A stretch of 38,238 nucleotides of DNA, from positions 1 through 38,238 of the IMG/VR virus record IMGVR_UViG_3300043640_000112; one strand, written 5' to 3'. The notes beneath the pieces were generated by a model, which worked only from the letters and a program-made list of their open reading frames with translations, searched no databases and had not been told where the DNA came from. Shown piece by piece: positions 1-38,238 of this stretch. Position numbers and translations under genes: made by a program. This DNA comes from a virus. The stretch's first letter is position 1; each line of letters begins with the position of its first letter.

Positions 1-127
1 ATGTGTATCTGGGGTATGAAGATCTTTAGGATAATATAGACGCTCAATTTCTTTACCAAGTTCTTTGGCTAAATCTTTCAGATCGTCTATTTTTTCACTA
101 TGTGTGTGTCCGCTGATTAAAATATTC
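1..127. repeat. Terminal overlap: identical to 38112-38238, marking a circular or terminally redundant contig
   Basis: Direct comparison of the first 127 nt with the last 127 nt shows an exact match. ORFs read through the junction. Confidence 0.95.
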
Positions 128-192
128 ATAATCCCCCCGTGAGTTTTACCTAATAAAAACGACACACACGATAACATATGTTCTTCACTCAT
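1..192 (-). CDS. Hypothetical small protein, 65 aa once the circle is closed. The ATG is at 192-190 and the last two codons plus stop lie at 38111-38106.
   Basis: My translation is [65 protein letters not shown]. Its start overlaps the upstream stop as TAATG. It contains an ISGHTH motif but is far too short for a phosphoesterase. Confidence 0.4.
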   Translation of the reverse strand, partial: MSEEHMLSCVSFLLGKTHGGIMNILISGHTHSEKIDDLKDLAKELGKEIERLYYPKDLHTPDTH

Positions 193-3158: not shown

Positions 3159-3224
3159 CGGTGTATAGTTCAGGCTGGTAGAACTGATGTTGAGATAGCG
3201 CTGGTTCGAATCCAGCTACGCCGA
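3159..3224 (+). tRNA. tRNA-like element with a truncated or non-canonical anticodon arm (66 nt, no encoded CCA)
   Basis: Hand fold: acceptor CGGTGTA/TACGCCG is 7 bp with one G-U pair. U8-A9 are present. The D arm is GTTC-AGGCTGGTA-GAAC. The T arm is GCTGG-TTCGAAT-CCAGC. Only 14 nt (GATGTTGAGATAGC) lie where about 22 nt of anticodon arm plus variable loop are expected. Confidence 0.5.
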
Positions 3225-7713: not shown

Positions 7714-7742
7714 TTGACAGATTGTTAATACAATACTAAGAT
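7714..7742 (+). promoter_or_regulatory. Sigma70-like promoter candidate TTGACA-N17-TAAGAT upstream of the capsid gene
   Basis: Consensus -35 hexamer, 17-nt spacer, acceptable -10 hexamer. It lies about 155 nt upstream of the capsid ATG. Confidence 0.45.
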
Positions 7743-9458: not shown

Positions 9459-10399
9459 TGGCTTACACATTCAGAGACTTTGCTTTTCAAATGTATCGTC
9501 TAATAAATGCTTCCAATCCTACAACGCCTTTGCATGGTGATGATGAAAAGCTCTGTTTACAGGTCTTAAATCAGCTCATGCAAGCCTATGCTGGTAATGG
9601 GCAAATGTTGACGATTGCGAAAACTCTGAATTGCCCAATTAATAACGATATTCATACAATTCGATTTGTTGATAACAATTATCCAACCGATACCATTATG
9701 ACAGAAATTGTGGCGCTTGTTACGGCTTCTCCCCTAATTACAGTCGCTAATGGTACGCTTTATAATATAGGCGATTTGGTTTCGGGAAATGGGATACCCG
9801 CATTAACAGTTATCATAAATATTGATGGAAATATACTCACATTAAGTAATAATTCAACAATTACAGGCTCATCTACATTAACGTTTATTCGACCTAATGT
9901 AATACCTGGCATTGTATTTATTAAACAAGGCCGTTTAGCAAATTTAGATAATGCTTGGTTAATTCTTTCAGGAGTGACTTATCCGCTTATTGATAAATCT
10001 CGTGATGATTTTCTAGCGGCTTGGAAGTACGAACCTTTAAAAGGGCTTCCTAGATTTGCCATCGTATTTCCGAATACAGAATATGTTGATATTCAGTTAT
10101 ATCCTGCTCCTAGTCAGTTCTTTGAATTCTTTTGCCGCGGTAAATTTCAATTATCTGAATATACAAAAGACTCTGATATGTCAAATTTGCCTCAGTATTT
10201 CATTCGATTCCTGCTGTTCGCCGGTGCACGTGACGTTTGCATGTACAAAGGAAGATCCGAAGCGTGGACCCCAAAACACGAGCAATTTTATCAAGAAGCC
10301 TATGATATCATGGTATCAACTAGCGAAATGAATCTTTCAATTACAGGTGATGAACAATCTCTCTTAAATGGAGCATGGCGTGTAAAAGCCGGAATTTAG
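9458..10399 (+). CDS. Tail adaptor / head-to-tail protein candidate carrying an inserted ~60-aa GxGIP module
   Basis: Its position after the capsid gene matches gp4 in P22-type order. Residues about 85-146 resemble the tandem module in the fibre gene 17411-19228. Confidence 0.45.
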   Translation: MAYTFRDFAFQMYRLINASNPTTPLHGDDEKLCLQVLNQLMQAYAGNGQMLTIAKTLNCPINNDIHTIRFVDNNYPTDTIMTEIVALVTASPLITVANGTLYNIGDLVSGNGIPALTVIINIDGNILTLSNNSTITGSSTLTFIRPNVIPGIVFIKQGRLANLDNAWLILSGVTYPLIDKSRDDFLAAWKYEPLKGLPRFAIVFPNTEYVDIQLYPAPSQFFEFFCRGKFQLSEYTKDSDMSNLPQYFIRFLLFAGARDVCMYKGRSEAWTPKHEQFYQEAYDIMVSTSEMNLSITGDEQSLLNGAWRVKAGI

Positions 10400-17410: not shown

Positions 17411-19228
17411 ATGACAATGGTGCGTGGATACGATCCGATTTGGAAAGAAGTTGATCTTACAGGACATCTCTTTGATGACACTTTTTATCTATTTATCTTA
17501 GAAAATGATATACCTTATATACCATCTACTACGTGGCAAGACCCATTCGGTAATGTTCCCTGGAGTAATCCAATAAGATTTTTTGCAAATGGCACACTTC
17601 CAAACAATATTTATTACGATCCTGATACTGTCTATCGGTTGGAATTTAGACAAGGACCAACACAATCAGATCCACTTATATATTTGATTGAAAATTATGT
17701 TCCTGGCTCTAGTGGTGATATGCCTGTTGATGAAACTTTTTTCTCTACAGATAATCAAGTAAGCAATCCTCAATTTGCGCTGATTAATTTTGCGAGTCCA
17801 TTAACGCTAAATAGCATTAGCACTCAAATAATAAACTTAGCCCCAGGATGGTTTTTGCATTTAACGGGTGCTGGGAATGTTACTTTAACGCAAGTGTTAT
17901 TAAATAGCGCCGTTGTAGACCCAACAAATGCATCTTACGCGCTACAAATTCAATTAAGTGGTAGTTGGACCAATGCTTTCTTAAGCCAAAGATTTACTAG
18001 AAATGGAGTGTTATGGGCTAATACATATATATCTTCTTCTATAATGGCATTGTCTGGGAATGCACCACAAACTATTTCAGCGACAATCGTTGATTCTCAA
18101 GGCAATACAGTAGCTTCTGTATTAGGAAGCACACCTTTAACCGAAACATTCAATGAATATCGTGGTGTTGATTTAGCGCCTGCTTCGGCTGATACCGACT
18201 TTCCTCCTGCTGCTTATATTGAATATCAATTATTATTGCCAAATAATTGCAACATTACATTATCTAGTGTTCAATTAATTTCCGGCGATGTGCAACTTAC
18301 ATATCCCTATGAACAAACAACGATTGAACGTCAAATTGACCAAACATATCATAATTCATTCCCAATTGTACCAATTGGAACAATTATTGACTTTGGAGGA
18401 TTTAATACACCATTACATTATTTATTATGCGATGGGGCTGCTTATAGTCGAACAACTTATAATTTATTATTCCAAGAAATAACGGCATTAGAGACCGTTA
18501 CTTTGACATCTACTTCTCCTACTTTCACGGTGATATCTGGTGCAAAATATCGAATTGGAATGGGACTTGAAGGAACGGGGATTCCAGCATTTACTACGAT
18601 AATAAACATTTCTGGCAATACCATTACAATGGCATCCCCAGCTACAACTACCGGCCCATCAGCCGTCAGATTCTACGCAGCAGCCCCTATATATTTGGAA
18701 ACTGTAACTTTAACATCTACCATGTCTACATTTACAGTGACATCAGCTGCAAATTATGGCATTGGAATGGCTGTAACTGGAAGTGGTATTCCATCGGCCA
18801 CAATAATTACAAATATTTCCGGGACCACTATCACTATTTCGCACGCAGCCACTATCACAGGAGCCTCTTTATTAAAATTTTATGGCGTTGGCAACGGGGA
18901 TGCTTCAACTACATTTAATATCTATAATCTACAAGATTTTGTCATTGCCGGTACTGGCGGCTCATTATTTGGATCTAATGATAATACGATTGGCGCATCA
19001 GGAGGTTCAGCCATGCATACATTGACTATCCTTGAAATGCCAGCTCATACTCACCCAGGTGTAACACCTTCAATAGGTTTAGGTCAAGCAGATTCTCCAG
19101 GCGGTGGGGCTTCTTTAATTTCTGGATCGGGCTTTTCAATGAGTGTTGCATCTCAAGGAAATAGTAGTCCTCATTCAATTGTTCAACAAACAATGTTGAT
19201 GAAAAAATGTATTAGATTTGAATATTAA
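17411..19228 (+). CDS. Tail fibre with a tandem GxGIP module pair and a C-terminal phage tail-collar domain
   Basis: Tail-collar signature FNIYNLQDFVIAGTGG...GGSAMHTLTILEMPAHTHPG (about 18911-19060). Two ~65-aa repeats lie at 18488-18685 and 18695-18892. Confidence 0.85.
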   Translation: MTMVRGYDPIWKEVDLTGHLFDDTFYLFILENDIPYIPSTTWQDPFGNVPWSNPIRFFANGTLPNNIYYDPDTVYRLEFRQGPTQSDPLIYLIENYVPGSSGDMPVDETFFSTDNQVSNPQFALINFASPLTLNSISTQIINLAPGWFLHLTGAGNVTLTQVLLNSAVVDPTNASYALQIQLSGSWTNAFLSQRFTRNGVLWANTYISSSIMALSGNAPQTISATIVDSQGNTVASVLGSTPLTETFNEYRGVDLAPASADTDFPPAAYIEYQLLLPNNCNITLSSVQLISGDVQLTYPYEQTTIERQIDQTYHNSFPIVPIGTIIDFGGFNTPLHYLLCDGAAYSRTTYNLLFQEITALETVTLTSTSPTFTVISGAKYRIGMGLEGTGIPAFTTIINISGNTITMASPATTTGPSAVRFYAAAPIYLETVTLTSTMSTFTVTSAANYGIGMAVTGSGIPSATIITNISGTTITISHAATITGASLLKFYGVGNGDASTTFNIYNLQDFVIAGTGGSLFGSNDNTIGASGGSAMHTLTILEMPAHTHPGVTPSIGLGQADSPGGGASLISGSGFSMSVASQGNSSPHSIVQQTMLMKKCIRFEY

Positions 19229-19248
19229 ATTATAAAAAGGAGAATAAT

Positions 19249-19584
19249 GTGACAATTCCATGGAATGCAAATTATCTTGAAACTCTCTCATTTAGTGATA
19301 CTGATTTTCAAGTGGGATGTACTGTTGATGAAGACCAGATTGTTACGATACCGGGAATTGATACCGATAAATATCAAGCTTATTTTGAATACGCATCAAA
19401 TTCTAATGTATTTGTTTGCAAAAATTCTATTCCTGTTATTCCAGCTGGAGGCAGCGTAGGTGCGCAGCCTTATAATGAATTCAAACCTATCAAACGTTAT
19501 GTACAAGGTGGAGATGTGTTACACTTTATTACACCAGATGATATTGCTTACATCGGAGTTTCATTAAGAAAATTACAAGGTTAA
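19249..19584 (+). CDS. Hypothetical protein (111 aa, GTG start)
   Basis: AAAGGAG ribosome-binding site 7 nt before the GTG. Located between two fibre genes. Confidence 0.5.
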   Translation: MTIPWNANYLETLSFSDTDFQVGCTVDEDQIVTIPGIDTDKYQAYFEYASNSNVFVCKNSIPVIPAGGSVGAQPYNEFKPIKRYVQGGDVLHFITPDDIAYIGVSLRKLQG

Positions 19585-19588
19585 ATAG

Positions 19589-19608
19589 AATGTTCCACGT
19601 GGAACATT
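19589..19608. promoter_or_regulatory. 20-bp perfect palindrome AATGTTCCACGTGGAACATT (copy 2)
   Basis: Read directly. It starts 5 nt after the stop at 19584 and ends 20 nt before the start at 19628. Confidence 0.6.
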
Positions 19609-19627
19609 AATATAATCACAAGGATTC

Positions 19628-22600
19628 GTGATGGTAAACACGATTAAATTTAGCCAGATGACGGATGGCGGCAATTTAGCTAATGATGAAAAAACTCCGG
19701 GATTATTGGGTGGGGCAAATGTATTATTTAATAATCCTTGGACATTTTTGCCCTCCGGAACAACAGCCGATAGGCCAACGCCATCGTCCTTAATTAACTA
19801 TCGTCTGCGATTTAATACGACCGATCAGTTATACGAGTACTATGATGCGGTGCTAGGTGCGTGGACTCAATTGCAAGAGAGCGCGTTTACTCAAGGCCCA
19901 TTTGTAATTTATACGGCAGATCCTTCTATCCCTGATGGTCAAAACTTAGGTGCGCTTGCTGACGGCATTCTGAAGCAGACCATTACCCTTGGCGTGGCCA
20001 CCGTTGATATAGCGGTGAATGGTGTTGATTTCTATGGCCCGGGCTATACAGGTTATCTAGTCGCGCCTGCTGGTATTGCGGATATTGATGGTAATTTCAT
20101 CCTTACAACAACAAGTGTTGGCGCTTCAGCCGTTAATAGCTTGCGTGTTGTAAATAGCATCACCGGAAATCCTGTTCTTATAGAAAGTATTGGATTTGAT
20201 ACGAATGTTGGATTAAGTCTAATTACTAAAGGAACAGGCCAATTAAGATTAGAAAGTGGTAATGCAACACAGCCTTTAATAATTGTTAGCGGAACATTGG
20301 GTAATCATTTTACTCGTTTCGCAATGGCAGATACGAGTGCCGATAGGACGGCAACATGGCAAGATTCAGACGGCACTATAGCATGGCTATCGGATGTGGC
20401 TGGTACTGTTACATCGGCACAGGGTACAGAATTTCAAGTTTTAGTAAACGGTAATTTTGGCACACAAGAAACAGGCGCTTGTATATTTACATTGCCACAA
20501 GACATTGCGGCAATCAGTTCTCCCACATTCAATTCCCTAACATTGACAAACCCATTAACCGTTCCAAATGGCGGTACAGGGTTGGCAACGTTGACGGCAT
20601 ATACATTGCTTGCAGGCGGTACAACATCTACCGGGAATTTACAGCAAGTAGGGGCTGGAGCCGCCGGACAATTATTGCAATCGGCTGGTGCTGGCGCATT
20701 GCCTACATGGACAACTTCCACATTCCCAAGCGGTTCTGGAACGTTGAACCATATGTTGCGATCTGATGGAACAAACTGGGTTGAAACCACATCGACAACA
20801 TTAGATGCTTCAGATAACTTCGCAGGCATTACATCAGCAGCAATTGGAAACTTATCATTAGCAGTTAACACATTAAGCTCCAGTAACTCTAATGGTAATA
20901 TTTATTTACAACCAAATGGTGTTGGTAGAACAGTTGTTACCAATGCAAGTGCTCCCTCCTCAGCATTTTTAGGTGATTTTGGAATTGTAACGGTTTCTGC
21001 CAGTGCTAGCCAAACTACAACAACTTATAGCGCAAATAGCGGACAATCATCGCAGCTTTATTTGGCAAAAAGTCATAGTACAACACCTGGATCATTTTCA
21101 GCGATTGGTTCATCTGAGGTTATTGGCCAGATTTTTGCATATGGTGATGATGGAACGCAATTTACTGAATCATGCAACATTAGATTTTTTGTTAATGGCA
21201 CTGTTTCAAGTGGCATTGTTCCGGGGCAAATACAATTTTTAACGGCCAATAGCTCAGGCGCAATAACACAGGCTCTTGCGATTGATTCTGCGCAACAAGC
21301 TACGTTTGCAAATAATATTATCCAAAGTGGGTTTTTAAGAGGAACAACAGAAATACAAGACTCTGTGGCAAATGTCTTGCTAGATTTTGCAACAAGTGGT
21401 GGCACTCCATTTAACTATTTCCAGATTACAAATAATCCCACAGGTGCTGGTCCAAACTTAAATTCTCTCGGCGGAGACACTGATGTTGGCATGAATTTTA
21501 CAACAAAAGGGAATGGTAGATTTTTTTGGCGCAGCACTCATGCGACTCCATTTGTTATTTTAAATGGAACTGCATATCAGCGCACCAACCAATTTAACTT
21601 CCCCGACCTATCTGGAAACTTTGCTTATACTTTCCCGGCAGCCACAGGAACGATTGCTTTGACAGCAGACCTTACTAGCTATGTCACTGCGGTAAATGGT
21701 ACAGCAAACCGTATAACATCAACTGGTGGTACGACACCAACTATTGATATATCGGCAAGTTATGTTGGTCAATCCTCAATTACAACTCTTGGTACGATTG
21801 GAACGGGGGTTTGGAACGGTACATTAGTTTCACCAATTTATGGCGGAACTGGCGTTAATAATGGCAGCAATACATTAACATTGGCTGGCACACTGGCTAC
21901 AAGTGGTGCATTTTCTTCTGTATTTACGATGACAGGTGCCACGAATGTGACGTTTCCCACAACGGGGACATTGTTGACATCTGCGGGTGCCGTAACTTCC
22001 ATTACTGGAACTGCAAATCAGGTCATTGCATCAGCATCTACGGGCGCGGTTACTTTGAGTTTGCCGCAATCTATTGCAACCAGTAGCTCGCCCACATTTG
22101 TAACTGTGACTGGAACAACATCGGTTGTTGCCGGCGCCACAGGAAGTCCAGCGAACTATATAGTTTCTGTTGCGCCTGGCGCAAGTGCAGGCAATATAGT
22201 TATAACAGCGGCTAATAGTGCGGGTAATTTTAATGGCTTTATCACTAATGCCTCAATGTCAGACACAAGGACTTGGACATTCCCAGATAGATCCGGCACT
22301 GTAGCTATTCCAGTAAACGGTACTTTTTCTCCAACAATTGAATTTGGAGGAGCCTCGGTTGGAGTTACTTACTCTAGTCAGATTGGAAAATTCCAATTAG
22401 TAGGCAATGTTGCCACGGTTCAGTGTTTTGTTACTTTATCAAATAAAGGTTCTTCTGTAGGTAATGCTGCTATAGGAAATCTTCCATATGCCCCTGTTGA
22501 CAATAGCCAAAGTTTTCCCATTGGGCAAGTATCTAATATATCATTTTTAGGCACATCCGTTGGAGTCACAGTAACAACTGCTGCTGTAGCTGTACTTTAT

Positions 22601-22696
22601 TATAATATTACAGCCTCTACACCTGTAGTCCTTACTGATACCAACTTTACAAATACAAGCTCGGTTATTGTAACGTTTTCATATTTTATATCTTAA
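19628..22696 (+). CDS. Long tail fibre / receptor-binding protein (1022 aa)
   Basis: Gly/Thr/Ser/Ala-rich. Recurrent fibre motifs: PSGTTADRP...RFNTT...YEYYD..W, LPQDIAAISSPTFNSLT, GGTG(L/V)..., and TWTFPDRSGTVA. Confidence 0.85.
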   Translation: MMVNTIKFSQMTDGGNLANDEKTPGLLGGANVLFNNPWTFLPSGTTADRPTPSSLINYRLRFNTTDQLYEYYDAVLGAWTQLQESAFTQGPFVIYTADPSIPDGQNLGALADGILKQTITLGVATVDIAVNGVDFYGPGYTGYLVAPAGIADIDGNFILTTTSVGASAVNSLRVVNSITGNPVLIESIGFDTNVGLSLITKGTGQLRLESGNATQPLIIVSGTLGNHFTRFAMADTSADRTATWQDSDGTIAWLSDVAGTVTSAQGTEFQVLVNGNFGTQETGACIFTLPQDIAAISSPTFNSLTLTNPLTVPNGGTGLATLTAYTLLAGGTTSTGNLQQVGAGAAGQLLQSAGAGALPTWTTSTFPSGSGTLNHMLRSDGTNWVETTSTTLDASDNFAGITSAAIGNLSLAVNTLSSSNSNGNIYLQPNGVGRTVVTNASAPSSAFLGDFGIVTVSASASQTTTTYSANSGQSSQLYLAKSHSTTPGSFSAIGSSEVIGQIFAYGDDGTQFTESCNIRFFVNGTVSSGIVPGQIQFLTANSSGAITQALAIDSAQQATFANNIIQSGFLRGTTEIQDSVANVLLDFATSGGTPFNYFQITNNPTGAGPNLNSLGGDTDVGMNFTTKGNGRFFWRSTHATPFVILNGTAYQRTNQFNFPDLSGNFAYTFPAATGTIALTADLTSYVTAVNGTANRITSTGGTTPTIDISASYVGQSSITTLGTIGTGVWNGTLVSPIYGGTGVNNGSNTLTLAGTLATSGAFSSVFTMTGATNVTFPTTGTLLTSAGAVTSITGTANQVIASASTGAVTLSLPQSIATSSSPTFVTVTGTTSVVAGATGSPANYIVSVAPGASAGNIVITAANSAGNFNGFITNASMSDTRTWTFPDRSGTVAIPVNGTFSPTIEFGGASVGVTYSSQIGKFQLVGNVATVQCFVTLSNKGSSVGNAAIGNLPYAPVDNSQSFPIGQVSNISFLGTSVGVTVTTAAVAVLYYNITASTPVVLTDTNFTNTSSVIVTFSYFIS

Positions 22697-22709
22697 AAGA
22701 TATAGATAA

Positions 22710-22738
22710 TTAACACCTTGACAAAGATATGCTAGAGT
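22710..22738 (+). promoter_or_regulatory. Cassette-1 promoter TTAACA-N14-TGC-TAGAGT (extended -10)
   Basis: 17-nt spacer counted by hand. The same architecture and a shared GCTAGAGTGAAT core occur at 25244-25272. Confidence 0.55.
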
Positions 22739-22774
22739 GAATGTGGATTTTTAATAATAACGTGGAGAGACAAG

Positions 22775-23026
22775 ATGTCCGAAGTAAAAGAAATGGGTTT
22801 GTTAGAATCGATGAAAGCGCAACATGCTGCATTTTTACAGCAAAGGGATCAAGCGCAAGTAAATTTTCAACAATTAGTTGGTGCGATTTTTGCGCTTGAA
22901 AGCATGATTAAACAGCATGAAGAAAAATTAGTGGCAGCACTAAAAGAACAGGTCGAGGGAGTAGTTCCTGCCGAACCAGTACCCACCGAACCACAAGGAG
23001 TTAGTGAAAATGAAGAAGCCTGCTAG
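22775..23026 (+). CDS. Small coiled-coil protein, cassette-1 paralogue of 25309-25548
   Basis: LESMKAQHAAFLQQRDQAQVNFQQLVGAIFALESMIKQHE aligns with LDQLKEQHTQFLQQREQTQTNLQQLIGAIFACELMIKKHE. Confidence 0.65.
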   Translation: MSEVKEMGLLESMKAQHAAFLQQRDQAQVNFQQLVGAIFALESMIKQHEEKLVAALKEQVEGVVPAEPVPTEPQGVSENEEAC

Positions 23027-23102
23027 AAAGATGGAAGAAAAAAACATCCGGAATATGGACGATAAAAAAGACAATAAAATGGTAAAGAAAAAGATGCAAT
23101 GA
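23010..23102 (+). CDS. Lys-rich micro-ORF (30 aa), in the +1 frame overlapping the end of the upstream gene
   Basis: MKKPARKMEEKNIRNMDDKKDNKMVKKKMQ. A similar 32-aa ORF sits at 25928-26026. Confidence 0.35.
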   Translation: MKKPARKMEEKNIRNMDDKKDNKMVKKKMQ

Positions 23103-23133
23103 AAAAGGACTGCAAATAATCAAGGAGCGAATC

Positions 23134-23343
23134 ATGGCCTACGATGAGACACCAAGAAAGCCAATCGAAGTTAGAGAGGGAAAAGGAGGGGGGCGCGCAG
23201 GTCATGATGAGCTTATTGATCGCGCTGGTGACGCTGGACAATATGGCGTGCGAACCGATGCGGCAGCTGAGGGCGTGGGCTATTTGGGGGTTGATGATTT
23301 AGACAGGATAAGACGCAAAAATCTTAAACATAAAACCAGATAA
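23134..23343 (+). CDS. Small protein (69 aa), cassette-1 paralogue of 26036-26236
   Basis: Shares an N-terminal MAY(D/E) and a C-terminal EG.G(Y/F)LG(V/I)D(D/N)LD(R/K)(I/M)RR(K/R). AGGAG ribosome-binding site 6 nt upstream in both copies. Confidence 0.6.
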   Translation: MAYDETPRKPIEVREGKGGGRAGHDELIDRAGDAGQYGVRTDAAAEGVGYLGVDDLDRIRRKNLKHKTR

Positions 23344-23362
23344 ATTATAAGGAGATAATGAT

Positions 23363-25198
23363 ATGGCTATTTTAGCAATTGGACGTTATTTCGTAGGTGA
23401 TCCTAATATTGTTGGAATTGTCACAACTGATGATTTGGCCACCATTATTGCCGATGGATATCTTACTGCTCAACAACCAATTATTAATTCTTTAATTAAT
23501 GGTGATTTTGAATGGCTCACTACTGACTTAATATTAATATATTATTCTCCTACAAGTATTGGATTTTTTACAAGAGATGCAATTAATAATACTTTCGTAG
23601 AATTTAATCAAGCAGGGCAAGTACAGGCTATAACCGGTACTTCACGTCAAATATTGTCAAATAATACGAGTGGAACTCCAGAAACAGGCAATATTACACT
23701 TACAATTGCTAACAACCCTATATTGCCAGGAACCGGCGGTGTTACTTTGCCTACAGGCACTACAATACAACGAGCAGGAAGTGCAGGTACTATACGATTC
23801 AATTCTCAAACAAGTGTTTTTGAAGGAACAGTTAATGGAAGTGCATGGTCTTCTTTAGGATCGTCAAGTATACAAGGAACCGCTAATCAAGTTTTAGCCA
23901 ATGGTACTAGTGGCAGTCCAGTAACAGGGGCTGTGATTTTAACATTGCCTCAAGATATCAATACTATTAGTAGTCCAAGTTTCACTGCTTTAACCGCAGG
24001 GAATTTGAATTTAATTAATTCAACTTTATCTAGTATTTCCACTAATTCTAATTTGGCTTTAGTACCAAATGGAACGGCTGCTGTATTAATTGGTCAAAAT
24101 ACAGCATTTGCACCTATAGCAGGATTTCCTAATAATTTACAAATAATTAGTAAATCAGGATCGCAAGCGGGTTTAACCATAGGAACATTTTTAGCAAATG
24201 GCCAAGGATCAGTATCTTATTTATATAAGAGCAGAAGTACTTCTCCTGGATCATTCACTACTGTTCAAGTTGGAGATAGTTTGGGCCTTTATGGATGGTC
24301 AGCAGATGACGGCACAAGTTTTGTAAATGCTGCTAATATTGGGGTTTTTGTTACAGCTATTTCTCCAGGAAGTCTTTCTACACGCATGGCTTTTTTATTA
24401 AGAAATGGTGTTAGTGCTCCAACAGGAGCATTGCAATTAAATTCCGACCAAACTGCACAGTTTTTTGGAAATGTTACCAATGCTAGCGGTCATTCATTTA
24501 TCAGTAATTCTCCTACTATAAATTTAGGTTCTTTAGCATTAACCGGGGCTAATAATGCAGGTAACTTTGCTAATATTTTAACTAACGCTTCAACAGCAGC
24601 AGCTAGGACTTGGACCTTACCAGATGCAACAGGTACAATAGCACTAACTTCACAACTAGCCACTCCCGCCGCTTTAACAAAAACAGATGATACTAATGTT
24701 ACTTTAACTTTAGGAGGAACTCCATCTACGGCTTTACTACAAGCTACTTCCTTGACGTTAGGATGGACAGGTCTTTTAAGTCCAACTCGTGGAGGAACAG
24801 GTGTAAACAACAGTACTAATACCCTAACAATTAATGCGAATTCAACCATTAATCAAAATGTAAGCACGACTGCTATACCAACTTTTGGATCATTAATTAC
24901 TACACCTGCAAATTCGGATGATTCATCATTATCTTTAGGAACTGCCTATCAGAATACATTAGGTTACGATATAGTTTTGACCGTATATTTGGCAATTACA
25001 GCCGCGACAGCTGGTTCAGTGGCCGTAGGAGTTGGGGCTACCAATACACCAACCCAACAAAACGTAATATCTGGATTTACCATTGCCGCATTATCAATTA
25101 TACCTATAACTATTTATTTGCCGACTTCATATTATGCATTAGTAAGTCTTACAAGTGTTACGGGTAGTATTTCTGGACAACAAATAATGCCAGTTTAA
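23363..25198 (+). CDS. Tail fibre / receptor-binding protein (611 aa), with an N-terminal anchor shared with 26267-27118
   Basis: N-terminal PNIVGIVTTDDLA...GY...IYY motif. Shares fibre motifs with the 1022-aa protein (LPQDINTISSPSFTALT, RTWTLPDATGTIALTS, RGGTGVNNSTNTLT). Confidence 0.85.
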   Translation: MAILAIGRYFVGDPNIVGIVTTDDLATIIADGYLTAQQPIINSLINGDFEWLTTDLILIYYSPTSIGFFTRDAINNTFVEFNQAGQVQAITGTSRQILSNNTSGTPETGNITLTIANNPILPGTGGVTLPTGTTIQRAGSAGTIRFNSQTSVFEGTVNGSAWSSLGSSSIQGTANQVLANGTSGSPVTGAVILTLPQDINTISSPSFTALTAGNLNLINSTLSSISTNSNLALVPNGTAAVLIGQNTAFAPIAGFPNNLQIISKSGSQAGLTIGTFLANGQGSVSYLYKSRSTSPGSFTTVQVGDSLGLYGWSADDGTSFVNAANIGVFVTAISPGSLSTRMAFLLRNGVSAPTGALQLNSDQTAQFFGNVTNASGHSFISNSPTINLGSLALTGANNAGNFANILTNASTAAARTWTLPDATGTIALTSQLATPAALTKTDDTNVTLTLGGTPSTALLQATSLTLGWTGLLSPTRGGTGVNNSTNTLTINANSTINQNVSTTAIPTFGSLITTPANSDDSSLSLGTAYQNTLGYDIVLTVYLAITAATAGSVAVGVGATNTPTQQNVISGFTIAALSIIPITIYLPTSYYALVSLTSVTGSISGQQIMPV

Positions 25199-25243
25199 AA
25201 AAATAATATATTAAAGGAAAATATTTATAAATAACCGCGCATA

Positions 25244-25272
25244 TTAACATATTTAAAATTTAATGCTAGAGT
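25244..25272 (+). promoter_or_regulatory. Cassette-2 promoter TTAACA-N14-TGC-TAGAGT (extended -10)
   Basis: Same hexamers and spacing as 22710-22738. The downstream leader is also similar (GTGAATrTG.ATTT...AATAAC..GGAG). Confidence 0.55.
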
Positions 25273-25308
25273 GAATATGATTTATTTAAAATAACAGGGA
25301 GCGTTAAG

Positions 25309-25548
25309 ATGTCAGATACAAAAAGCAATGAGATTCAAAAAGAATTAAGTTTATTAGATCAACTCAAAGAACAACACACTCAATTTTTGCAGCAACGCGA
25401 ACAAACTCAGACTAATCTCCAGCAATTAATTGGAGCTATTTTTGCATGTGAATTAATGATTAAAAAACATGAAGATGCTATTAAAGAATTGTCATCAGAA
25501 AATTTAGGAGCTCAAGGAAATGGCGAAGCTTACAACCAAGAAGCGTAA
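25309..25548 (+). CDS. Small coiled-coil protein, cassette-2 paralogue of 22775-23026
   Basis: See the alignment given for 22775-23026. Confidence 0.65.
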   Translation: MSDTKSNEIQKELSLLDQLKEQHTQFLQQREQTQTNLQQLIGAIFACELMIKKHEDAIKELSSENLGAQGNGEAYNQEA

Positions 25549-25747
25549 TTCATTACCTAAATCAGAATTTGCATTACCAGGCGAACGTAAGTTTCCAATT
25601 AATGATGCTTCCCACGCAAAAAATGCCAAAGCACGAGCATCAGAAATGGAACACAAAGGAAAATTATCTACTTCTAGTAAAGCTAAGATAGATTCTAAAG
25701 CTGATAAAATTTTAAAACGCGGCGAGCCTAAAGGAAGTAAACGATGA
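25520..25747 (+). CDS. Small basic protein (75 aa) with the motif FALPGERKFPINDASHAKNAKAR
   Basis: The start codon is at the position homologous to the cassette-1 micro-ORF start, also in the +1 frame. The (K/R)xFPIxDxxHxxNAxAR motif recurs in small phage proteins as far as I recall. Confidence 0.5.
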   Translation: MAKLTTKKRNSLPKSEFALPGERKFPINDASHAKNAKARASEMEHKGKLSTSSKAKIDSKADKILKRGEPKGSKR

Positions 25748-25923
25748 ACGTGCTAGCAACATTTATTAGTACTCAATTAATTAAAGCTATAGAGAGTGAA
25801 TTTATTAATCATTCACCTGAAATACAGGCTGCTATTATCCACCAGATTCAAAATTTTCTGATTGAAGGAACTATCTGGGTAGAAAATAAACTTGCAATTT
25901 CAAAAAAATCAACTGGAGAGTAA
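25744..25923 (+). CDS. Hypothetical protein (59 aa, below the ORF-track cutoff)
   Basis: ATGA overlap with the upstream stop. Translation: MNVLATFISTQLIKAIESEFINHSPEIQAAIIHQIQNFLIEGTIWVENKLAISKKSTGE. Confidence 0.4.
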   Translation: MNVLATFISTQLIKAIESEFINHSPEIQAAIIHQIQNFLIEGTIWVENKLAISKKSTGE

Positions 25924-25927
25924 AGTC

Positions 25928-26026
25928 ATGAAGAAAGAAAAAAAACCTATGAAAAAAATGGAAATGAAAGAGAAAAAAATGGAGCGTAAGAGTGATAAAA
26001 AAGACAAAAAGGATTGCCGTTATTAG
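25928..26026 (+). CDS. Lys-rich micro-ORF (32 aa) containing A7-A8 runs
   Basis: MKKEKKPMKKMEMKEKKMERKSDKKDKKDCRY, paralogous in composition and position to 23010-23102. Confidence 0.35.
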   Translation: MKKEKKPMKKMEMKEKKMERKSDKKDKKDCRY

Positions 26027-26035
26027 GAGATGATC

Positions 26036-26236
26036 ATGGCATATGAAAATGATCCGATTAAACGTCAAGATAGTGATGGTAAAGATAGAAGAATTAAGAT
26101 AGGGTATAATGCTGAAATAGATTCTGCTAAGGCTGCAAGAGATAATACATTGAAAGATTCAGATCCGATGGTCGAAAAGGAAGGATTTTTAGGAATTGAT
26201 AATCTAGATAAAATGAGACGCAGAAAAGTTAGATAA
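26036..26236 (+). CDS. Small protein (66 aa from MAYEN), cassette-2 paralogue of 23134-23343
   Basis: By homology to MAYDETP and by AGGAG spacing of 6 nt, the ATG at 26036 is favoured over the track start at 26030. Confidence 0.6.
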   Translation: MAYENDPIKRQDSDGKDRRIKIGYNAEIDSAKAARDNTLKDSDPMVEKEGFLGIDNLDKMRRRKVR

Positions 26237-26266
26237 TTATTCATCAAATTATATGGAGATAATTAA

Positions 26267-27118
26267 ATGATTACATCGATAAAAAGGGATTTTAACTTAT
26301 TTCCTAATATTGTGGGGATTGTTACGACAGACAATTTAGCCGCAATTACTACAACAGGTTATTTTAATACTCAATTAGCAGCAGTTGAATTATTAAATAA
26401 TGGAATATGGCAATGGGAGCTGGAAGATTGGATTGTAATTTATTACGCTACCAATTTAATTGGATTATTTACTTATAATGCCTCGACAGATGCTTTTGTA
26501 TCGTTAGCAGCTAACGGAGGAATTTCTAATACTTTACCTTCCGCTGATATTATCGTCGGTAATTCTTCAAATATAGCTACCGCTGTAGTTATGTCTGGTG
26601 ATGTACACATTAGTAACACTGGCGTAACAACCATTCAAGCCGGCGCTGTATCAGGCTCTAAGATTGCTAATAACGCCGTAGACTATGCTCAATTGGCGTT
26701 GGATGTAGCGGCTACAGTCACTGTTACTTTAACAGCCACTCAAATCAAAGCCTTATATGATACCCCGGTACAATTAGTCGCAGCACCAGGTGCTGGAAAA
26801 TTAATTTTAATTGATAGTATCTTATGGGATATCGCTTTCGTATCAGCTCAATATACAGCTGGCGGCGCTATTCAGGCTCAATATGGAAATACAGTTCATG
26901 GCGCTGGCTCTCCAGCCTCAGCATCTATTGCAGCAGCTACATTGAATGGAATAGCAGCTAGTGGGTTTATTGCTAACGGTTCAGGTTCAGCAACATTAAA
27001 CGCACCTGCAACTGTAGAAAATACCGCGGTATTTTTGTCTAATGCAACTGGCGATTTTGCAACTGGCGATTCAACGGCCACTTTATATGTGCGATATAGG
27101 ATTGTAAGCCCCGCATAA
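26267..27118 (+). CDS. Short tail fibre / receptor-binding protein (283 aa) with the shared N-terminal anchor
   Basis: N-terminal PNIVGIVTTDNLAAITTTGY...IYYATNLIGLFTYN aligns with 23363-25198. The C-terminus is Ala/Gly/Ser/Thr-rich and beta-type. Confidence 0.75.
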   Translation: MITSIKRDFNLFPNIVGIVTTDNLAAITTTGYFNTQLAAVELLNNGIWQWELEDWIVIYYATNLIGLFTYNASTDAFVSLAANGGISNTLPSADIIVGNSSNIATAVVMSGDVHISNTGVTTIQAGAVSGSKIANNAVDYAQLALDVAATVTVTLTATQIKALYDTPVQLVAAPGAGKLILIDSILWDIAFVSAQYTAGGAIQAQYGNTVHGAGSPASASIAAATLNGIAASGFIANGSGSATLNAPATVENTAVFLSNATGDFATGDSTATLYVRYRIVSPA

Positions 27119-27158
27119 AGATAGTCAATGAACAAGCTAAGGATAGCTTTAATTTGGT

Positions 27159-27200
27159 TCCTGTGTGGATGCTAGGATGCATATACCCACACAGGATTTT
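27159..27200 (+). terminator. Rho-independent terminator ending the late/fibre transcription unit
   Basis: A 10-bp stem TCCTGTGTGG/CCACACAGGA followed by TTTTATATTT. Confidence 0.75.
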
Positions 27201-27259
27201 ATATTTCTCACCAATATATTTACTAAATCACTTGCTTATTTGTCAGGAGGATATCTGTT

Positions 27260-27661
27260 ATGCAAGATTTACAGCAATGGATTAAAAATTGCGAAAAACT
27301 AAATTTAGAATCTTATATTGATACAAATGGTCATTTAACCATTGGATGGGGAAGAAACTTAGAGAATGGTATTCGTCTAGATGAAGCTGAATTAATGTTT
27401 AAAAATGATTTAAAGCAAACGATTCAAGAATTGGATGCTCAACATTGGTTTGTAAATTTACCTGATAATGTTCAAGCTGCTCTTATTAATATGAACTTCA
27501 ATCTAGGTATTACCAAATTGAATGGTTTTAAAAAAATGATTGCGGCACTCCAAACTAAAGATTACACAACTGCTGCTTTAGAGGCTTTAGACAGTCGTTG
27601 GGCAAAGCAAGTAGGTCAACGAGCTACAGATATATCGGTAATGATTAGAGAGGGAAAATGA
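27260..27661 (+). CDS. Endolysin, T4-lysozyme-like (GH24)
   Basis: CEKLNLESYIDTNGHLTIGWGRNLE matches the GH24 E-x-L-x-x-Y-x-D-x-x-G-x-x-T-I-G-x-G signature. Confidence 0.85.
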   Translation: MQDLQQWIKNCEKLNLESYIDTNGHLTIGWGRNLENGIRLDEAELMFKNDLKQTIQELDAQHWFVNLPDNVQAALINMNFNLGITKLNGFKKMIAALQTKDYTTAALEALDSRWAKQVGQRATDISVMIREGK

Positions 27662-27834
27662 CAAAGGAAGAACGATTCGAATTGCTATGGACTCATTATC
27701 ATCGCCAATTAGATGAAAATAGAGCCGTAGGAAGAGCGTTGGATGAACTTAGGGAGCAAGTTCGGGAGCTAAAGGATGAGCTTAACGCAAGAGCAAGTAG
27801 AACACATAAACGTAGTAAATTGGTTTCACCATGA
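27658..27834 (+). CDS. Possible small coiled-coil ORF (58 aa). It overlaps the endolysin stop (ATGA) and 59 nt of the next gene.
   Basis: Open frame MTKEERFELLWTHYHRQLDENRAVGRALDELREQVRELKDELNARASRTHKRSKLVSP. No transmembrane segment. The long overlap makes it doubtful. Confidence 0.25.
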   Translation: MTKEERFELLWTHYHRQLDENRAVGRALDELREQVRELKDELNARASRTHKRSKLVSP

Positions 27835-28207
27835 CTTTCCAGAGTTAGCAGATGACTTTCATCACTTTGCTAATGAGAGATTCATTGATGTTAAAAATAA
27901 TCCCGGTCTTTGGCAGCATGCTAAAAATTTGTCAAAGATGGGAATAAAAAAAGGAGTTTCAGACTTTTTTCTAGCGCTGCCGGTTCAGAACGAATCTGGT
28001 GTTTGGTTGGCTGGATTGTGGATAGAGTTAAAAGTTGGAAAGGGAAAACTTACACCTGAGCAATCGGCTTTCATACACCGTAAATTACAACGTGGCTATG
28101 AAGCTGTAGCTGTATGGGGTGAGGATGCTGCTAAGGCAGTTATTTTGACGTATTTAAAAAGGGGTGTTGAATATGGAGAGCTTACGAGTCACCATCTTAA
28201 GGGATGA
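27776..28207 (+). CDS. VRR-NUC domain nuclease
   Basis: PD-(D/E)xK-type motifs GVSDFFL and WIELK, followed by LTPEQSAF, with typical size. Confidence 0.8.
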   Translation: MSLTQEQVEHINVVNWFHHDFPELADDFHHFANERFIDVKNNPGLWQHAKNLSKMGIKKGVSDFFLALPVQNESGVWLAGLWIELKVGKGKLTPEQSAFIHRKLQRGYEAVAVWGEDAAKAVILTYLKRGVEYGELTSHHLKG

Positions 28208-28382
28208 TGATTATGATTCATTCGTGATACCGGATGTGGAACTTTTCTTAGAACATTTGAGAGCTGATCCAAAGATAGCTGAGAAGTATAAACGCATGGA
28301 CGCAGAAGAGTTTAGACAGTGGGTCGAGGACGACTTAACACCTAAACAATTTGAAAAGTTAAAGGCTTTAAATAATTTATAA
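28164..28382 (+). CDS. Hypothetical protein (about 69-72 aa)
   Basis: ORF overlapping the end of the VRR-NUC gene. The likely start is the ATG at 28173. Confidence 0.4.
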   Translation: MLNMESLRVTILRDDDYDSFVIPDVELFLEHLRADPKIAEKYKRMDAEEFRQWVEDDLTPKQFEKLKALNNL

Positions 28383-28398
28383 ACAGGGAGCGTTAAAA

Positions 28399-28902
28399 AT
28401 GAGTGAAACAAGTTATGAGTTTGATCCATGTGAATTAGATGAAAGTGAGGATGAAGAAGTAACGTTAGATAACTGGAAACCGAAAGTCTTCCAAAAAGAA
28501 ATAGCAACTTCTGAGTGGCGTCAAAAATCTATAGGAAATAATTTTAATCAGCACCCCGGATTAGATGAACTTAAAAAAATTCATGTATATCTTAATAAGA
28601 AAGTTTCAGATAGTGACTTAATGAAAGCATTTGGAATCAACGCAGAAACTTTAATAGCAATTAAGAAAAATAAATATCATCCAGTAGATGGAATTTCATT
28701 AGATAATCTTAGTAAAATATATGAAGAATTTGATTCAATTGAAAAGAAAATTGATAATTGCTTACGCGCTATAAATTATATAGCTAGTATTATTTTTTTG
28801 GACAGTGAAGAAAAAGATAAATATAAACTGGCGTGTAAAAAGCCAAAGAAAGATAAAAAGAAACCAAAATATGATGAAGATATTTATGGCGAAGAAGAGT
28901 AA
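28399..28902 (+). CDS. Hypothetical protein with acidic termini and a Lys-rich C-terminal region (167 aa)
   Basis: ORF with the ribosome-binding-site context AACAGGGAGCGTTAA, identical to that of 25309. Confidence 0.55.
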   Translation: MSETSYEFDPCELDESEDEEVTLDNWKPKVFQKEIATSEWRQKSIGNNFNQHPGLDELKKIHVYLNKKVSDSDLMKAFGINAETLIAIKKNKYHPVDGISLDNLSKIYEEFDSIEKKIDNCLRAINYIASIIFLDSEEKDKYKLACKKPKKDKKKPKYDEDIYGEEE

Positions 28903-37930: not shown

Positions 37931-38140
37931 ATGCAAACTGGAATTGTAAAATGGTTTAACGAAGCAAAAGGTTTTGGATTTATTACAAGTGAAGAGAAAG
38001 ATTATTTTGTGTATTTTAAAGAAATCCAAGGAACTGGATTTAAAACTTTGAAAGAGGGTGAGAAGGTGCGTTTTACCACTGAATCCTCACCCAAAGGCCC
38101 CGTTGCTAAGAATGTGTATCTGGGGTATGAAGATCTTTAG
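37931..38140 (+). CDS. cspA: Cold-shock domain protein (CspA family)
   Basis: [15 protein letters not shown] carries RNP1, YFVYF is an RNP2 variant, and the protein is 69 aa. Confidence 0.9.
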
Positions 38141-38238
38141 GATAATATAGACGCTCAATTTCTTTACCAAGTTCTTTGGCTAAATCTTTCAGATCGTCTA
38201 TTTTTTCACTATGTGTGTGTCCGCTGATTAAAATATTC
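38112..38238. repeat. Terminal overlap, identical to 1-127
   Basis: Exact match by direct comparison. Confidence 0.95.

What the first reader, a model, noticed from the sequence alone, without database searches (positions are those of the whole stretch)
22710..27118. Two tandem, self-promoted receptor-binding cassettes with paralogous small accessory genes
After the 1022-aa fibre gene the same unit occurs twice.
- Promoter: both units carry TTAACA-N14-TGC-TAGAGT (22710-22738 and 25244-25272). The spacing is identical, the GCTAGAGTGAAT core is shared, and the leaders are similar.
- First gene: an ~80-aa coiled-coil protein whose core is well conserved between the two copies (alignment in the feature entry).
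- Overlapping ORF: its ATG sits at the homologous position, in the +1 frame, in both units.
- Lys-rich micro-ORF of 30 aa in one unit and 32 aa in the other.
- A 66-69-aa protein sharing MAY(D/E) and LG(V/I)D(D/N)LD(R/K)(I/M)RR(K/R).
- A fibre whose first ~80 aa (PNIVGIVTTD.LA...GY...IYY) are shared while the distal parts differ completely (611 aa versus 283 aa).
- Cassette 2 has two extra small genes (25520-25923).

I do not recognise this arrangement, with a dedicated promoter and three conserved small proteins upstream of each exchangeable fibre, as a described fibre-chaperone or adaptor system. It may be a portable host-range module with its own expression control and assembly factors.
Basis: partly seen in the sequence, partly recalled or inferred. 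Interest (0 to 1): 0.8.

Follow-up and report, generated by a model that had tools for sequence, protein, structure and literature searches.

The report
Duplicated fibre operon in uncultured podovirus
This phage genome carries two diverged tandem copies of an operon (promoter, several tiny unknown-function genes, then a fibre gene) that is single-copy in its many uncultured relatives, so it is a recombination-made duplication of a conserved family module, not a new portable host-range cassette.

Summary
Both units have an identical TTAACA-N17-(TG)nTAGAGT promoter-like site, and the coiled-coil (47% id), Lys-rich micro-ORF, 66-69-aa protein (32% id) and fibre N-terminal domain (46% id) are paralogous. 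About 55 related loci from an abundant uncultured ~37-kb P22-like podovirus family change the interpretation. The canonical, normally single-copy unit is promoter, coil, DUF6582-like, p59, K-rich micropeptide (ends KKDCRY), p69, anchor-bearing fibre, terminator, endolysin. Unit 2 is canonical. Unit 1 has lost two small genes and its K-rich ORF is cut short by a 1-nt deletion. The left half of the region resembles one lineage (L001) and the right half another (L023/25/30), so unequal recombination probably created the tandem. Other relatives carry two anchor-sharing fibres with only one small-gene set. Small-protein types assort independently of anchor and fibre types, and mosaic breakpoints fall at the p69/fibre junction or inside the anchor. 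So the small genes are generic, trans-acting family genes, not cognate partners travelling with each fibre. Their function is unknown; p69, always immediately upstream of a fibre, is the best candidate for a fibre attachment or assembly factor. Moderately interesting.

The parts
22710..22738 (+). Promoter-like site 1: -35 TTAACA, 17-nt spacer, extended -10 TGCTAGAGT
   Evidence: Conserved in relatives (A7).
22775..23026 (+). Coil protein, copy 1 (83 aa): conserved amphipathic-helix core plus acidic tail
   Evidence: 3.5-residue hydrophobic periodicity. About 91% nt identity to L001 over the first 62 codons.
23010..23102 (+). K-rich micro-ORF, copy 1 (30 aa). It is fused to the start codon of the deleted DUF6582-like gene and truncated by a 1-nt deletion, so the conserved PMKKDCK end is lost.
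23134..23343 (+). p69, copy 1 (69 aa, type A, ends KNLKHKTR)
   Evidence: 0 non-synonymous and 10 synonymous codon differences versus L001. The AF2 model is largely disordered.
23363..25198 (+). Fibre 1 (611 aa): class I N-terminal anchor (about aa 1-85) plus a unique distal part. No terminator follows it.
25244..25272 (+). Promoter-like site 2, with identical hexamers and spacing
25309..25548 (+). Coil protein, copy 2 (79 aa)
25520..25747 (+). DUF6582-like small basic protein (75 aa), an ancestral cassette gene
   Evidence: phrog_16160 E=7e-27. Pfam DUF6582 scores 24.6 bits, below the 27.3 cut-off. Present in 37 loci.
25744..25923 (+). p59 (59 aa helical protein), an ancestral cassette gene
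   Evidence: Cluster 2 in 21 loci, 28 loci by HMM.
25928..26026 (+). K-rich micropeptide, copy 2 (32 aa, intact KKDCRY end, GGAG ribosome-binding site)
26036..26236 (+). p69, copy 2 (66 aa, type B, ends RRRKVR). The ATG at 26036 is preferred over 26030 because of the GGAG spacing and the conserved MAY start.
26267..27118 (+). Fibre 2 (283 aa): class II anchor, short shaft and C-terminal jelly-roll knob. This type is highly conserved in the family.
27159..27209 (+). Terminator-like hairpin (CCTGTGTGG...CCACACAGG) with a U-rich tail, closing the unit before the endolysin gene (27260)
   Evidence: Compensatory changes in 8 of 16 pairs across 12 relatives.

Best explanation
The region holds two diverged tandem copies of a conserved operon from an uncultured ~37-kb podovirus family with a P22-like portal, hub and ejection proteins.

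The canonical operon is a sigma-70-type extended -10 promoter, five small genes (coiled-coil protein with acidic tail, DUF6582-like protein, p59, Lys-rich micropeptide ending KKDCRY, p69), the last fibre gene, and an intrinsic terminator. The endolysin gene follows. The operon is normally single-copy.

In this genome an unequal recombination between two lineages joined the end of an L001-like operon to the promoter of an L023/L025/L030-like operon. The result is two promoters, one terminator, and two fibres that share the ~80-aa N-terminal docking domain but have different distal parts: a class I variable fibre of 611 aa and a class II conserved fibre of 283 aa with a jelly-roll knob.

Inferred: both fibres mount through the shared anchor on the same kind of virion site, giving the phage two adhesins. 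Also inferred, with lower confidence: the small proteins act in trans as generic helpers of fibre assembly or attachment, not as cognate partners. On this reading p69 is a disordered, strongly constrained linker or attachment factor for the conserved anchor, and the coil is a functional analogue (not a homologue) of the T4 gp57A fibre chaperone. The redundant first set is already eroding.
For: Shown:
- Paralogy of all parts.
- Single-copy canonical cassette in relatives.
- Promoter consensus TTAACA-N17-TGnTAAAGT conserved across 24 aligned upstream regions and unique in this genome.
- Terminator after the terminal fibre: 26 of 42 distinct fibre downstream regions have one, and first or internal fibres mostly lack one (L052 is an exception). 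It shows covariation.
- Mosaic origin: 19202-23436 is best matched by L001 (80-91% nt), and 25343-28731 is colinear with L023/25/28/30/33.
- Loss of DUF6582-like and p59 genes and a frameshifted K-rich ORF in unit 1.
- One small-gene set with two anchor fibres in L052, L021, L008 and L022.
- No co-variation of small proteins with anchor or fibre type.
- p69 is always directly upstream of an anchor fibre and under strong purifying selection, with 0 non-synonymous against 10-15 synonymous differences. It has no autonomous fold, pLDDT 52.
- Fibre 2 model has an alpha/beta N-terminal domain and a jelly-roll C-terminus that matches some annotated tail fibres in BFVD.
- P22-like context: portal, Phage_stabilise/gp10-like hub, weak gp7 match.
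Against: - No experiment or homology ties any small protein to fibre assembly. The link is synteny within one phage family, where everything is syntenic.
- The coil shows no homology to gp57A (hhalign probability 0.09%).
- DUF6582-like genes lie near lysis or head genes in other phages.
- L001 and L003 lineages with a single cassette also lack p59 or the DUF6582-like gene, so the losses in unit 1 need not result from redundancy.
- The K-rich frameshift could be a sequencing error.
- The host is unknown, so recognition of the promoter is inferred.
- No exact crossover sequence could be defined. The junction at 25199-25243 is 45 nt of unique AT-rich DNA.
- The conserved 283-aa protein could be a head fibre instead of a tail fibre.
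Confidence: 0.55

Rival explanations
1. One reading: each unit is a portable host-range module in which a dedicated promoter and three cognate assembly or adaptor proteins travel with, and are specific for, their own exchangeable fibre.
For: The whole unit, promoter included, is duplicated here. p69 is always adjacent to a fibre. Similarity to relatives resumes exactly at the -35 element on the left border.
Against: - Only 1 of about 55 loci has two sets.
- Two-fibre relatives have one set.
- p69 types A and B and the coil types assort freely with anchor classes I and II and with distal domains.
- Breakpoints lie at the p69/fibre junction (26247-26273) or within the anchor (23436-23580).
- Unit 1 lacks two of the five genes.
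Confidence: 0.1
2. The small genes have nothing to do with fibres. They would be small virion-internal or ejected proteins, or host-takeover proteins (compare the small basic T7 proteins gp6.7 and gp7.3; own knowledge), expressed from a strong host-type promoter and merely syntenic with the last fibre gene.
For: - DUF6582-like genes occur in head-tail or lysis contexts in other phages.
- The K-rich micropeptide and the acidic-tailed coil have compositions typical of nucleic-acid-binding or mimicking proteins.
- The small proteins do not co-vary with the fibre.
- The promoter is among the best sigma-70 matches in the genome, so expression could be early or constitutive.
Against: - The p69-fibre adjacency is invariant even where coil, DUF6582-like and p59 genes are replaced (L015, L057).
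- The genes share one promoter-to-terminator unit with the fibre.
- No positive evidence exists for any alternative role.
Confidence: 0.25
3. The anchor-bearing proteins, at least the conserved 283-aa one, are head fibres or capsid-decoration trimers and not tail receptor-binding proteins. The small proteins would then serve capsid decoration.
For: - The C-terminal jelly roll gives its best PDB matches to trimeric capsid cement proteins of podoviruses (7dou, 8h89_J, 7eel_H), though weakly, at E about 2e-3 to 1e-2.
- The 283-aa type is unusually conserved for a receptor-binding protein, at 69% identity or more in over 120 clusters.
- In Klebsiella phage MY01 a DUF6582-like gene precedes a 'head fiber protein' gene.
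Against: - The Foldseek matches are weak (TM 0.26/0.49), and the jelly roll is a generic fold of fibre knobs as well.
- BFVD matches include annotated tail fibres and the C-termini of 600-1150-aa fibre-like proteins.
- Class I members carry the shaft motifs shared with the 1022-aa fibre.
- The genes lie in the tail-fibre block, after the ejection-protein genes.
Confidence: 0.1
4. The tandem arrangement is an assembly chimera of two co-occurring strains.
For: The contig is a metagenome assembly. Its left and right halves resemble different lineages. Both coil proteins are recorded on only this one contig.
Against: - A strain chimera would replace one cassette, not duplicate it.
- The only sequence shared between the end of fibre 1 and the start of unit 2 is short. 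The units are only about 67-72% identical at the nucleotide level, with one 13-nt exact repeat.
- The contig closes on itself with overlapping ends.
- Its length of 38.2 kb is within the family range of 33-40 kb.
- Mosaicism is pervasive in the family.
Confidence: 0.05

Closest known systems
Modular and branched receptor-binding-protein systems of podoviruses (Klebsiella phages KP32, K11, KP34: anchor domain, branching domain and conserved docking peptide; PMC13352976, PMC12692247)
   Same: There are several fibres per virion. A conserved N-terminal attachment module is joined to exchangeable distal parts. Recombination breakpoints fall at or after the anchor. A second RBP is gained as a route to a wider host range.
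   Different: Here both fibres carry the same ~80-aa homologous N-terminal domain, instead of an RBP1 anchor plus a short RBP2 docking peptide. No T7 gp17-type anchor or branching domain was detected by sequence. The fibre gene sits in its own promoter-terminator unit behind five small genes that have no counterpart in those systems.
T4 gp57A, the general tail-fibre trimerisation chaperone (79 aa, helical, oligomeric, absent from the virion; PMC3004832)
   Same: The coil is about 80 aa, with a predicted amphipathic helix or coiled coil. It would act on several fibres and is not cognate to any one fibre.
   Different: There is no detectable homology (hhalign probability 0.09%). The coil has a variable acidic tail and an invariant N..Q..GAI.A motif. 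Its function is untested. gp57A is not encoded next to the fibre genes.
Downstream fibre chaperones and assembly proteins (lambda Tfa, T4 gp38, Mu U/U'; own knowledge)
   Same: These are small accessory genes tightly linked to a fibre gene.
   Different: Those genes lie downstream of the fibre gene, co-vary with the fibre C-terminus and belong to known Pfam/PHROG families. Here the genes lie upstream, do not co-vary with the fibre and match no such family.
P22 immI region (mnt, arc, ant with their own sigma-70 promoters between the ejection-protein genes and tailspike gene 9; own knowledge)
   Same: The tail machine is P22-like, and small genes with a strong host-type promoter lie immediately upstream of the last adhesin gene, which can be read through from that promoter.
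   Different: No ribbon-helix-helix, antirepressor or any regulator domain was detected. There is no sign that this phage is temperate.

Membership tests
Sigma-70-type extended -10 promoter | -35 hexamer close to TTGACA, 17±1 nt spacer, TGn plus a -10 hexamer with A2 and T6 | tested here: met
   TTAACA-N17-TGC-TAGAGT at 22710-22738 and 25244-25272. These tie for the top score in the genome.
Sigma-70-type extended -10 promoter | Conservation of the two elements and their spacing in relatives while the flanks diverge | tested here: met
   The consensus TTAACA...TGnTAAAGT was recovered from 24 upstream regions (A7).
Sigma-70-type extended -10 promoter | Transcription initiates 5-9 nt downstream of the -10 element | not testable with these tools
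   This needs 5'-RACE or dRNA-seq. The host is unknown.
Intrinsic terminator closing the unit | GC-rich hairpin followed by a U-run, with the structure conserved by covariation | tested here: met
   27160-27195 plus a U-rich tail. 8 of 16 pairs show compensatory changes. The long loop (about 14-18 nt) is atypical.
Phage tail fibre / receptor-binding protein | Sequence membership in a described fibre family (Pfam, PHROG, NCBIfam or PDB) | tested here: not met
   The 611-aa and 283-aa proteins have no hit.
Phage tail fibre / receptor-binding protein | Modular build: conserved N-terminal attachment domain, variable distal part, knob-like C-terminal domain, and location in the tail gene block | tested here: met
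   BFVD matches include annotated tail fibres. Neighbouring genes are a Collar-domain fibre and a 1022-aa fibre.
Phage tail fibre / receptor-binding protein | Located on the tail and binds a host receptor | not testable with these tools
   A head-fibre reading is not excluded.
T4 gp57A-type fibre chaperone | Sequence or profile homology to gp57A | tested here: not met
   hhalign probability 0.09%. No PHROG hit.
T4 gp57A-type fibre chaperone | Small (about 80 aa) helical, oligomerising protein | tested here: inconclusive
   Length 79-83 aa. The 3.5-residue hydrophobic periodicity was reached by 5.4% of shuffles. No structure model was made. Oligomerisation is untested.
Tail-fibre assembly proteins (Tfa/gp38-like) | Profile match, downstream position, and co-variation with the fibre C-terminus | tested here: not met
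   No profile match. The genes are upstream. Spearman correlation with the distal part is 0.03.
DUF6582 / phrog_16160 | Profile match above threshold | tested here: inconclusive
   For the 25520-25747 product, PHROG E=7e-27, but Pfam scores 24.6 bits, below the gathering score of 27.3. Homologues occur in Klebsiella, Komagataeibacter, Tunturiibacter and Salmonella phages.
Branched RBP system (anchor + branching domain + docking peptide) | RBP1 with a T7 gp17-type anchor and a branching domain, and RBP2 with a short conserved docking peptide | tested here: not met
   Both fibres share a full ~80-aa homologous domain. There is no Pfam or PHROG anchor match. The physical docking partner was not identified.

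The most novel reading that the evidence does not exclude
The family-wide operon would encode an undescribed set of generic fibre-mounting factors for a P22-like tail. These would be an intrinsically disordered, highly constrained 69-aa linker (p69), an ~80-aa coiled-coil chaperone unrelated to gp57A, and a ~30-aa poly-Lys micropeptide ending KKDCRY. They would be expressed from their own host-type promoter and would let any fibre bearing the ~80-aa anchor be plugged in. That would explain why second fibres are repeatedly gained at this locus.
Probability: 0.3. Interest if true: 0.6.

Novelty: new variant of a known kind. Interest (0 to 1): 0.4.

Why it matters
If the small proteins prove to be generic mounting or assembly factors, the operon would define a new plug-in adhesin system. 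It would belong to an abundant phage family with no cultured member, represented by hundreds of metagenomic genomes. It would also add three ORFan families to the short list of fibre accessory factors, including a conserved poly-lysine micropeptide that gene callers are liable to miss.

The locus also gives a clear natural example of how a podovirus gains a second adhesin. In this window the gain came from unequal recombination between lineages that duplicated a whole operon. In relatives it came from inserting only a fibre gene.

If the small proteins have some other role, the finding reduces to an ordinary mosaic duplication in a tail-fibre region.

Tried and rejected
Searches that found nothing or nothing informative:
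- DNA search of 22600-27200 against GenBank phages: no match.
- tblastn of the 283-aa fibre against phages: no match.
- The portal gene finds only distant P22-like portals at 23-32% identity.
- Pfam, PHROG, NCBIfam and PADLOC scans of all small proteins and fibres: nothing except DUF6582/phrog_16160.
- PDB profile searches with the coil and p69 alignments, and phmmer with the 611-aa fibre: nothing significant.
- First IMG/VR scan with the 2-sequence coil alignment: nothing, because of poorly chosen patterns. The anchor alignment later retrieved 34 loci.
- Rfam on the whole window: only a tRNA.
- Literature search for DUF6582: no paper.
- GTDB genome scan for a host or prophage: only two MAG-binned phage contigs.

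Ideas tested and rejected or left unresolved:
- Homology of the coil to T4 gp57A: rejected.
- Rosetta-stone search for p69 fused to a fibre, over 1.84 billion representatives: 34 of the 38 related clusters are stand-alone proteins of 51-92 aa, plus one of 416 aa. The few long hits at E about 1e-4 are multi-stretch and probably spurious.
- AF2 of p69: low confidence (pLDDT 52), so no fold search was attempted.
- Lysis function for the small proteins: none has a transmembrane segment.
- Regulator like P22 Arc or Mnt: no DNA-binding domain was found.

Look-ups of the largest related genomes (33-40 kb) found single cassettes only.
Full report
**1. What is in the window**

The window is a complete phage genome. 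Its ends overlap.
- It encodes a large terminase, a P22-like portal and a major head protein. It also encodes a hub protein related to P22 gp10/Phage_stabilise and a weak P22 gp7-like ejection protein.
- The fibre-like genes are 17411-19228 (Collar domain), 19628-22696 (1022 aa), 23363-25198 (611 aa) and 26267-27118 (283 aa). An endolysin gene follows at 27260.
- No GenBank phage is similar at the DNA level. The nearest portals are 23-32% identical.

**2. Check of the observation**

- The promoter-like sites TTAACA-N17-TAGAGT, with TG one base upstream of the -10 hexamer, lie at 22710-22738 and 25244-25272.
- The 13-mer TGCTAGAGTGAAT occurs exactly twice in 38 kb.
- No other site in the genome combines a 6/6 match to TTAACA (5/6 to TTGACA) at the -35, 17-nt spacing and TGnTAnAnT. 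The two sites tie, with one minus-strand site at 9723, for the best simple sigma-70 score.
- The two coil proteins are 47% identical (E=4e-22).
- The two 66-69-aa proteins ('p69') are 32% identical (E=3e-8).
- The fibre N-termini are 46% identical over 79 residues, and nothing beyond that is similar.
- The Lys-rich micro-ORFs align, and each has a GGAG ribosome-binding site.

**3. The family context changes the picture**

A profile of the coil protein found 59 relatives, many on 35-38-kb contigs. Scans with the fibre anchor and the coil brought in 53 loci. HMM annotation of all of them shows a canonical, single-copy gene order: coil, DUF6582-like protein, p59, K-rich micropeptide, p69, anchor-bearing fibre, endolysin.
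- Further look-ups in large family genomes again showed one cassette.
- The family is abundant. There are 472 p69 clusters and 347 clusters related to the 283-aa fibre at 90% identity.
- The family has no cultured member in the GenBank phage collection searched. The species-representative genomes hold only mis-binned MAG contigs.
- Unit 2 of the window is the canonical form.
- Unit 1 lacks the DUF6582-like and p59 genes.
- A 1-nt deletion relative to L001 (GATGCCAATGA to GATG-CAATGA) also removes the family-conserved C-terminal PMKKDCK from the unit-1 K-rich ORF.

**4. It is a transcription unit**

- Twenty-four upstream regions from diverse relatives give the consensus TTAACA-N17-TGnTAAAGT. 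A conserved GGATTTTTTAA leader and a GGAG follow, while the sequence further upstream is unrelated.
- Downstream of the terminal fibre, most relatives have a GC-rich hairpin plus a T-run. Overall, 26 of 42 distinct fibre downstream regions have one, and most first or internal fibres of two-fibre loci lack one (L052 is an exception).
- In 12 relatives, 8 of the 16 predicted pairs of this hairpin show compensatory changes.
- In the window the hairpin lies at 27160-27195, after fibre 2. Nothing comparable follows fibre 1.
- The window therefore has two promoters and one terminator. Initiation and termination are inferred, not shown.

**5. Origin of the tandem**

- Window 19202-20549 and 22705-23436 are best matched by L001 at 80-91% nt identity. 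This covers the start of the 1022-aa fibre gene, the promoter, the coil, the K-rich ORF, p69 and the first 25 codons of fibre 1.
- Window 25343-28731 is colinear with L023, L025, L028, L030 and L033 at 68-74%.
- The simplest reading is one unequal recombination between two lineages. It joined the end of one operon to the promoter of the other. The 45-nt junction (25199-25243) is unique AT-rich DNA.
- An assembly chimera is unlikely. Strain chimeras replace sequence and do not duplicate it. The units share only short exact repeats. The contig closes on itself.

**6. Are the small genes cognate partners of 'their' fibre? No.**

(a) Other relatives have two anchor-sharing fibres but one small-gene set.
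- L052/L035 has a class I fibre of 275 aa directly followed by a class II fibre of 485 aa.
- In L021 a 162-aa fibre is inserted between the DUF6582-like gene and p59.
- In L008 and L022 an extra fibre lies upstream of the coil.

(b) p69 comes in two types: A (ending KNLKHKTR) and B (ending RRRKVR). The anchor comes in two classes: I (ITAIGRYFVGDPNIV, with variable distal parts) and II (ITSIKREFNLFPNIVGIVTTD, mostly the conserved 283-aa form).
- All four combinations occur.
- Pairwise-identity correlations are 0.10 for p69 versus anchor and 0.06 for coil versus anchor. Both small proteins give 0.03 against the distal part, compared with 0.43 for anchor versus distal part.

(c) Mosaic breakpoints lie at the p69/fibre junction (26247-26273 in unit 2) or inside the anchor (23436-23580 in unit 1). 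The fibre ORF is the exchangeable unit, not the cassette.

(d) Coil, DUF6582-like and p59 genes are replaceable (L015, L057, L003). DUF6582-like genes also occur next to lysis or head-tail genes in unrelated phages.

**7. What the small proteins might be**

- None matches Pfam, PHROG, NCBIfam, PADLOC or PDB sequences, apart from DUF6582/phrog_16160.
- The coil has a conserved 45-residue core with 3.5-residue hydrophobic periodicity and a variable acidic tail. It resembles T4 gp57A in size and kind; gp57A is a 79-residue general fibre chaperone (PMC3004832). It is not homologous to gp57A.
- p69 is the only small gene whose adjacency to an anchor fibre is invariant.
- p69 is under strong purifying selection: 0-1 non-synonymous against 10-15 synonymous codon differences.
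- p69 has no autonomous fold (pLDDT 52, two short helices).
- The p69 family is narrow and almost entirely stand-alone, with 38 clusters at 50% identity among 1.84 billion proteins and no convincing fusion. This profile fits a partner-dependent linker or assembly factor, but that is inference.
- The K-rich micropeptide (21-50 aa, KKM(D/E) repeats, KKDC(R/K)Y end) is conserved in frame, start and ribosome-binding site across the family. It is a real gene of unknown role.

**8. The fibres**

- The AF2 model of the 283-aa protein (pLDDT 76) has an alpha/beta N-terminal domain, short beta segments and a C-terminal jelly roll.
- PDB matches are weak and are mostly viral jelly rolls, including trimeric capsid cement proteins.
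- BFVD matches are mainly uncharacterised phage proteins. Some are annotated tail fibres, and some are the C-termini of 600-1150-aa fibre-like proteins.
- 'Fibre with a knob' is therefore supported. 'Tail receptor-binding protein' is plausible but unproven. The unusual conservation of the 283-aa type leaves a head-fibre reading open.

**9. Verdict**

- There is a separately promoted and terminated fibre operon with undescribed small genes, and its linkage to the fibre is real.
- It is a conserved single-copy family module whose small genes are generic. The tandem in this window is a rare recombinational duplication whose first copy lacks two of the small genes and has a truncated K-rich ORF.
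- Relative to known modular and branched RBP systems (PMC13352976, PMC12692247), this is a new variant: a shared full-length anchor domain, upstream ORFan accessory genes, and its own promoter and terminator.
- Interest is moderate, because the function of the small proteins remains open.

Noticed in passing
window 27119-27259: The intergenic element between fibre 2 and the endolysin gene is conserved in many relatives. It contains a small hairpin (AAGCTAAGGATAGCTT), a long hairpin with a U-run that shows compensatory changes, and a possible long-range pairing ATGAACAAG/CTTGTTCAT just upstream of the endolysin ribosome-binding site. It might regulate endolysin expression. No Rfam family matches.
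   Followed up: partly
window 3159-3224 (+): A tRNA gene lies between the terminase and portal genes (Rfam RF00005, 41 bits).
   Followed up: no
window 1-192 and 38106-38237: The two contig ends encode the same peptide (NILISGHTHSEKIDDLKDLAKELGKEIE). The contig is therefore a circularly closed or terminally redundant complete genome.
   Followed up: partly
window 22739-22774 and 25273-25308; alignment A7: A conserved leader motif GGATTTTTTAA lies 5-15 nt downstream of the -10 element in most relatives. It could be an operator or a 5'UTR element.
   Followed up: no
window 27260-28900 and the whole genome: A simple hydropathy scan found no holin- or spanin-like transmembrane protein near the endolysin. 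The genes after it are a 58-aa coiled protein, a VRR-NUC-like protein and acidic proteins.
   Followed up: no
window 7714-7742 (+): TTGACA-N17-TAAGAT lies about 150 nt upstream of the major head protein gene (7897). It is another good sigma-70-type match in front of a highly expressed structural gene.
   Followed up: no
L003 10288-10839; L052 10186-10803; L028/L048 4933-5415: ORFs are inserted between the coil gene and the next small gene in several relatives. The L003 ORF has an Endonuclease_7 domain, L052 has a 205-aa ORF, and L028/L048 have a gap of about 480 nt. In L003 the endonuclease ORF is in frame with the K-rich ORF.
   Followed up: partly
window 17411-19228, 19249-19584, 19628-22696 and homologues in the loci: The other two fibre genes also have family-conserved N-termini (RG.NPIW.EVDL...FDDTFYLF and MVDTIKFSQMT) with variable distal parts. 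A conserved 111-aa protein lies between them. All three fibre loci therefore follow the anchor-plus-variable-tip pattern.
   Followed up: partly
L033 8633-8890: An 85-aa remnant of an anchor-like ORF lies immediately upstream of the coil promoter. It may be the relic of a lost extra fibre.
   Followed up: no
L060 (MAG: Pedobacter sp., 36.9-kb contig) and L059 ('uncultured archaeon'): Whole phage genomes of this family are binned into MAGs. The strong GGAG Shine-Dalgarno sites and the sigma-70-type promoter argue against a Bacteroidota host, so the Pedobacter label is probably a binning artefact.
   Followed up: partly
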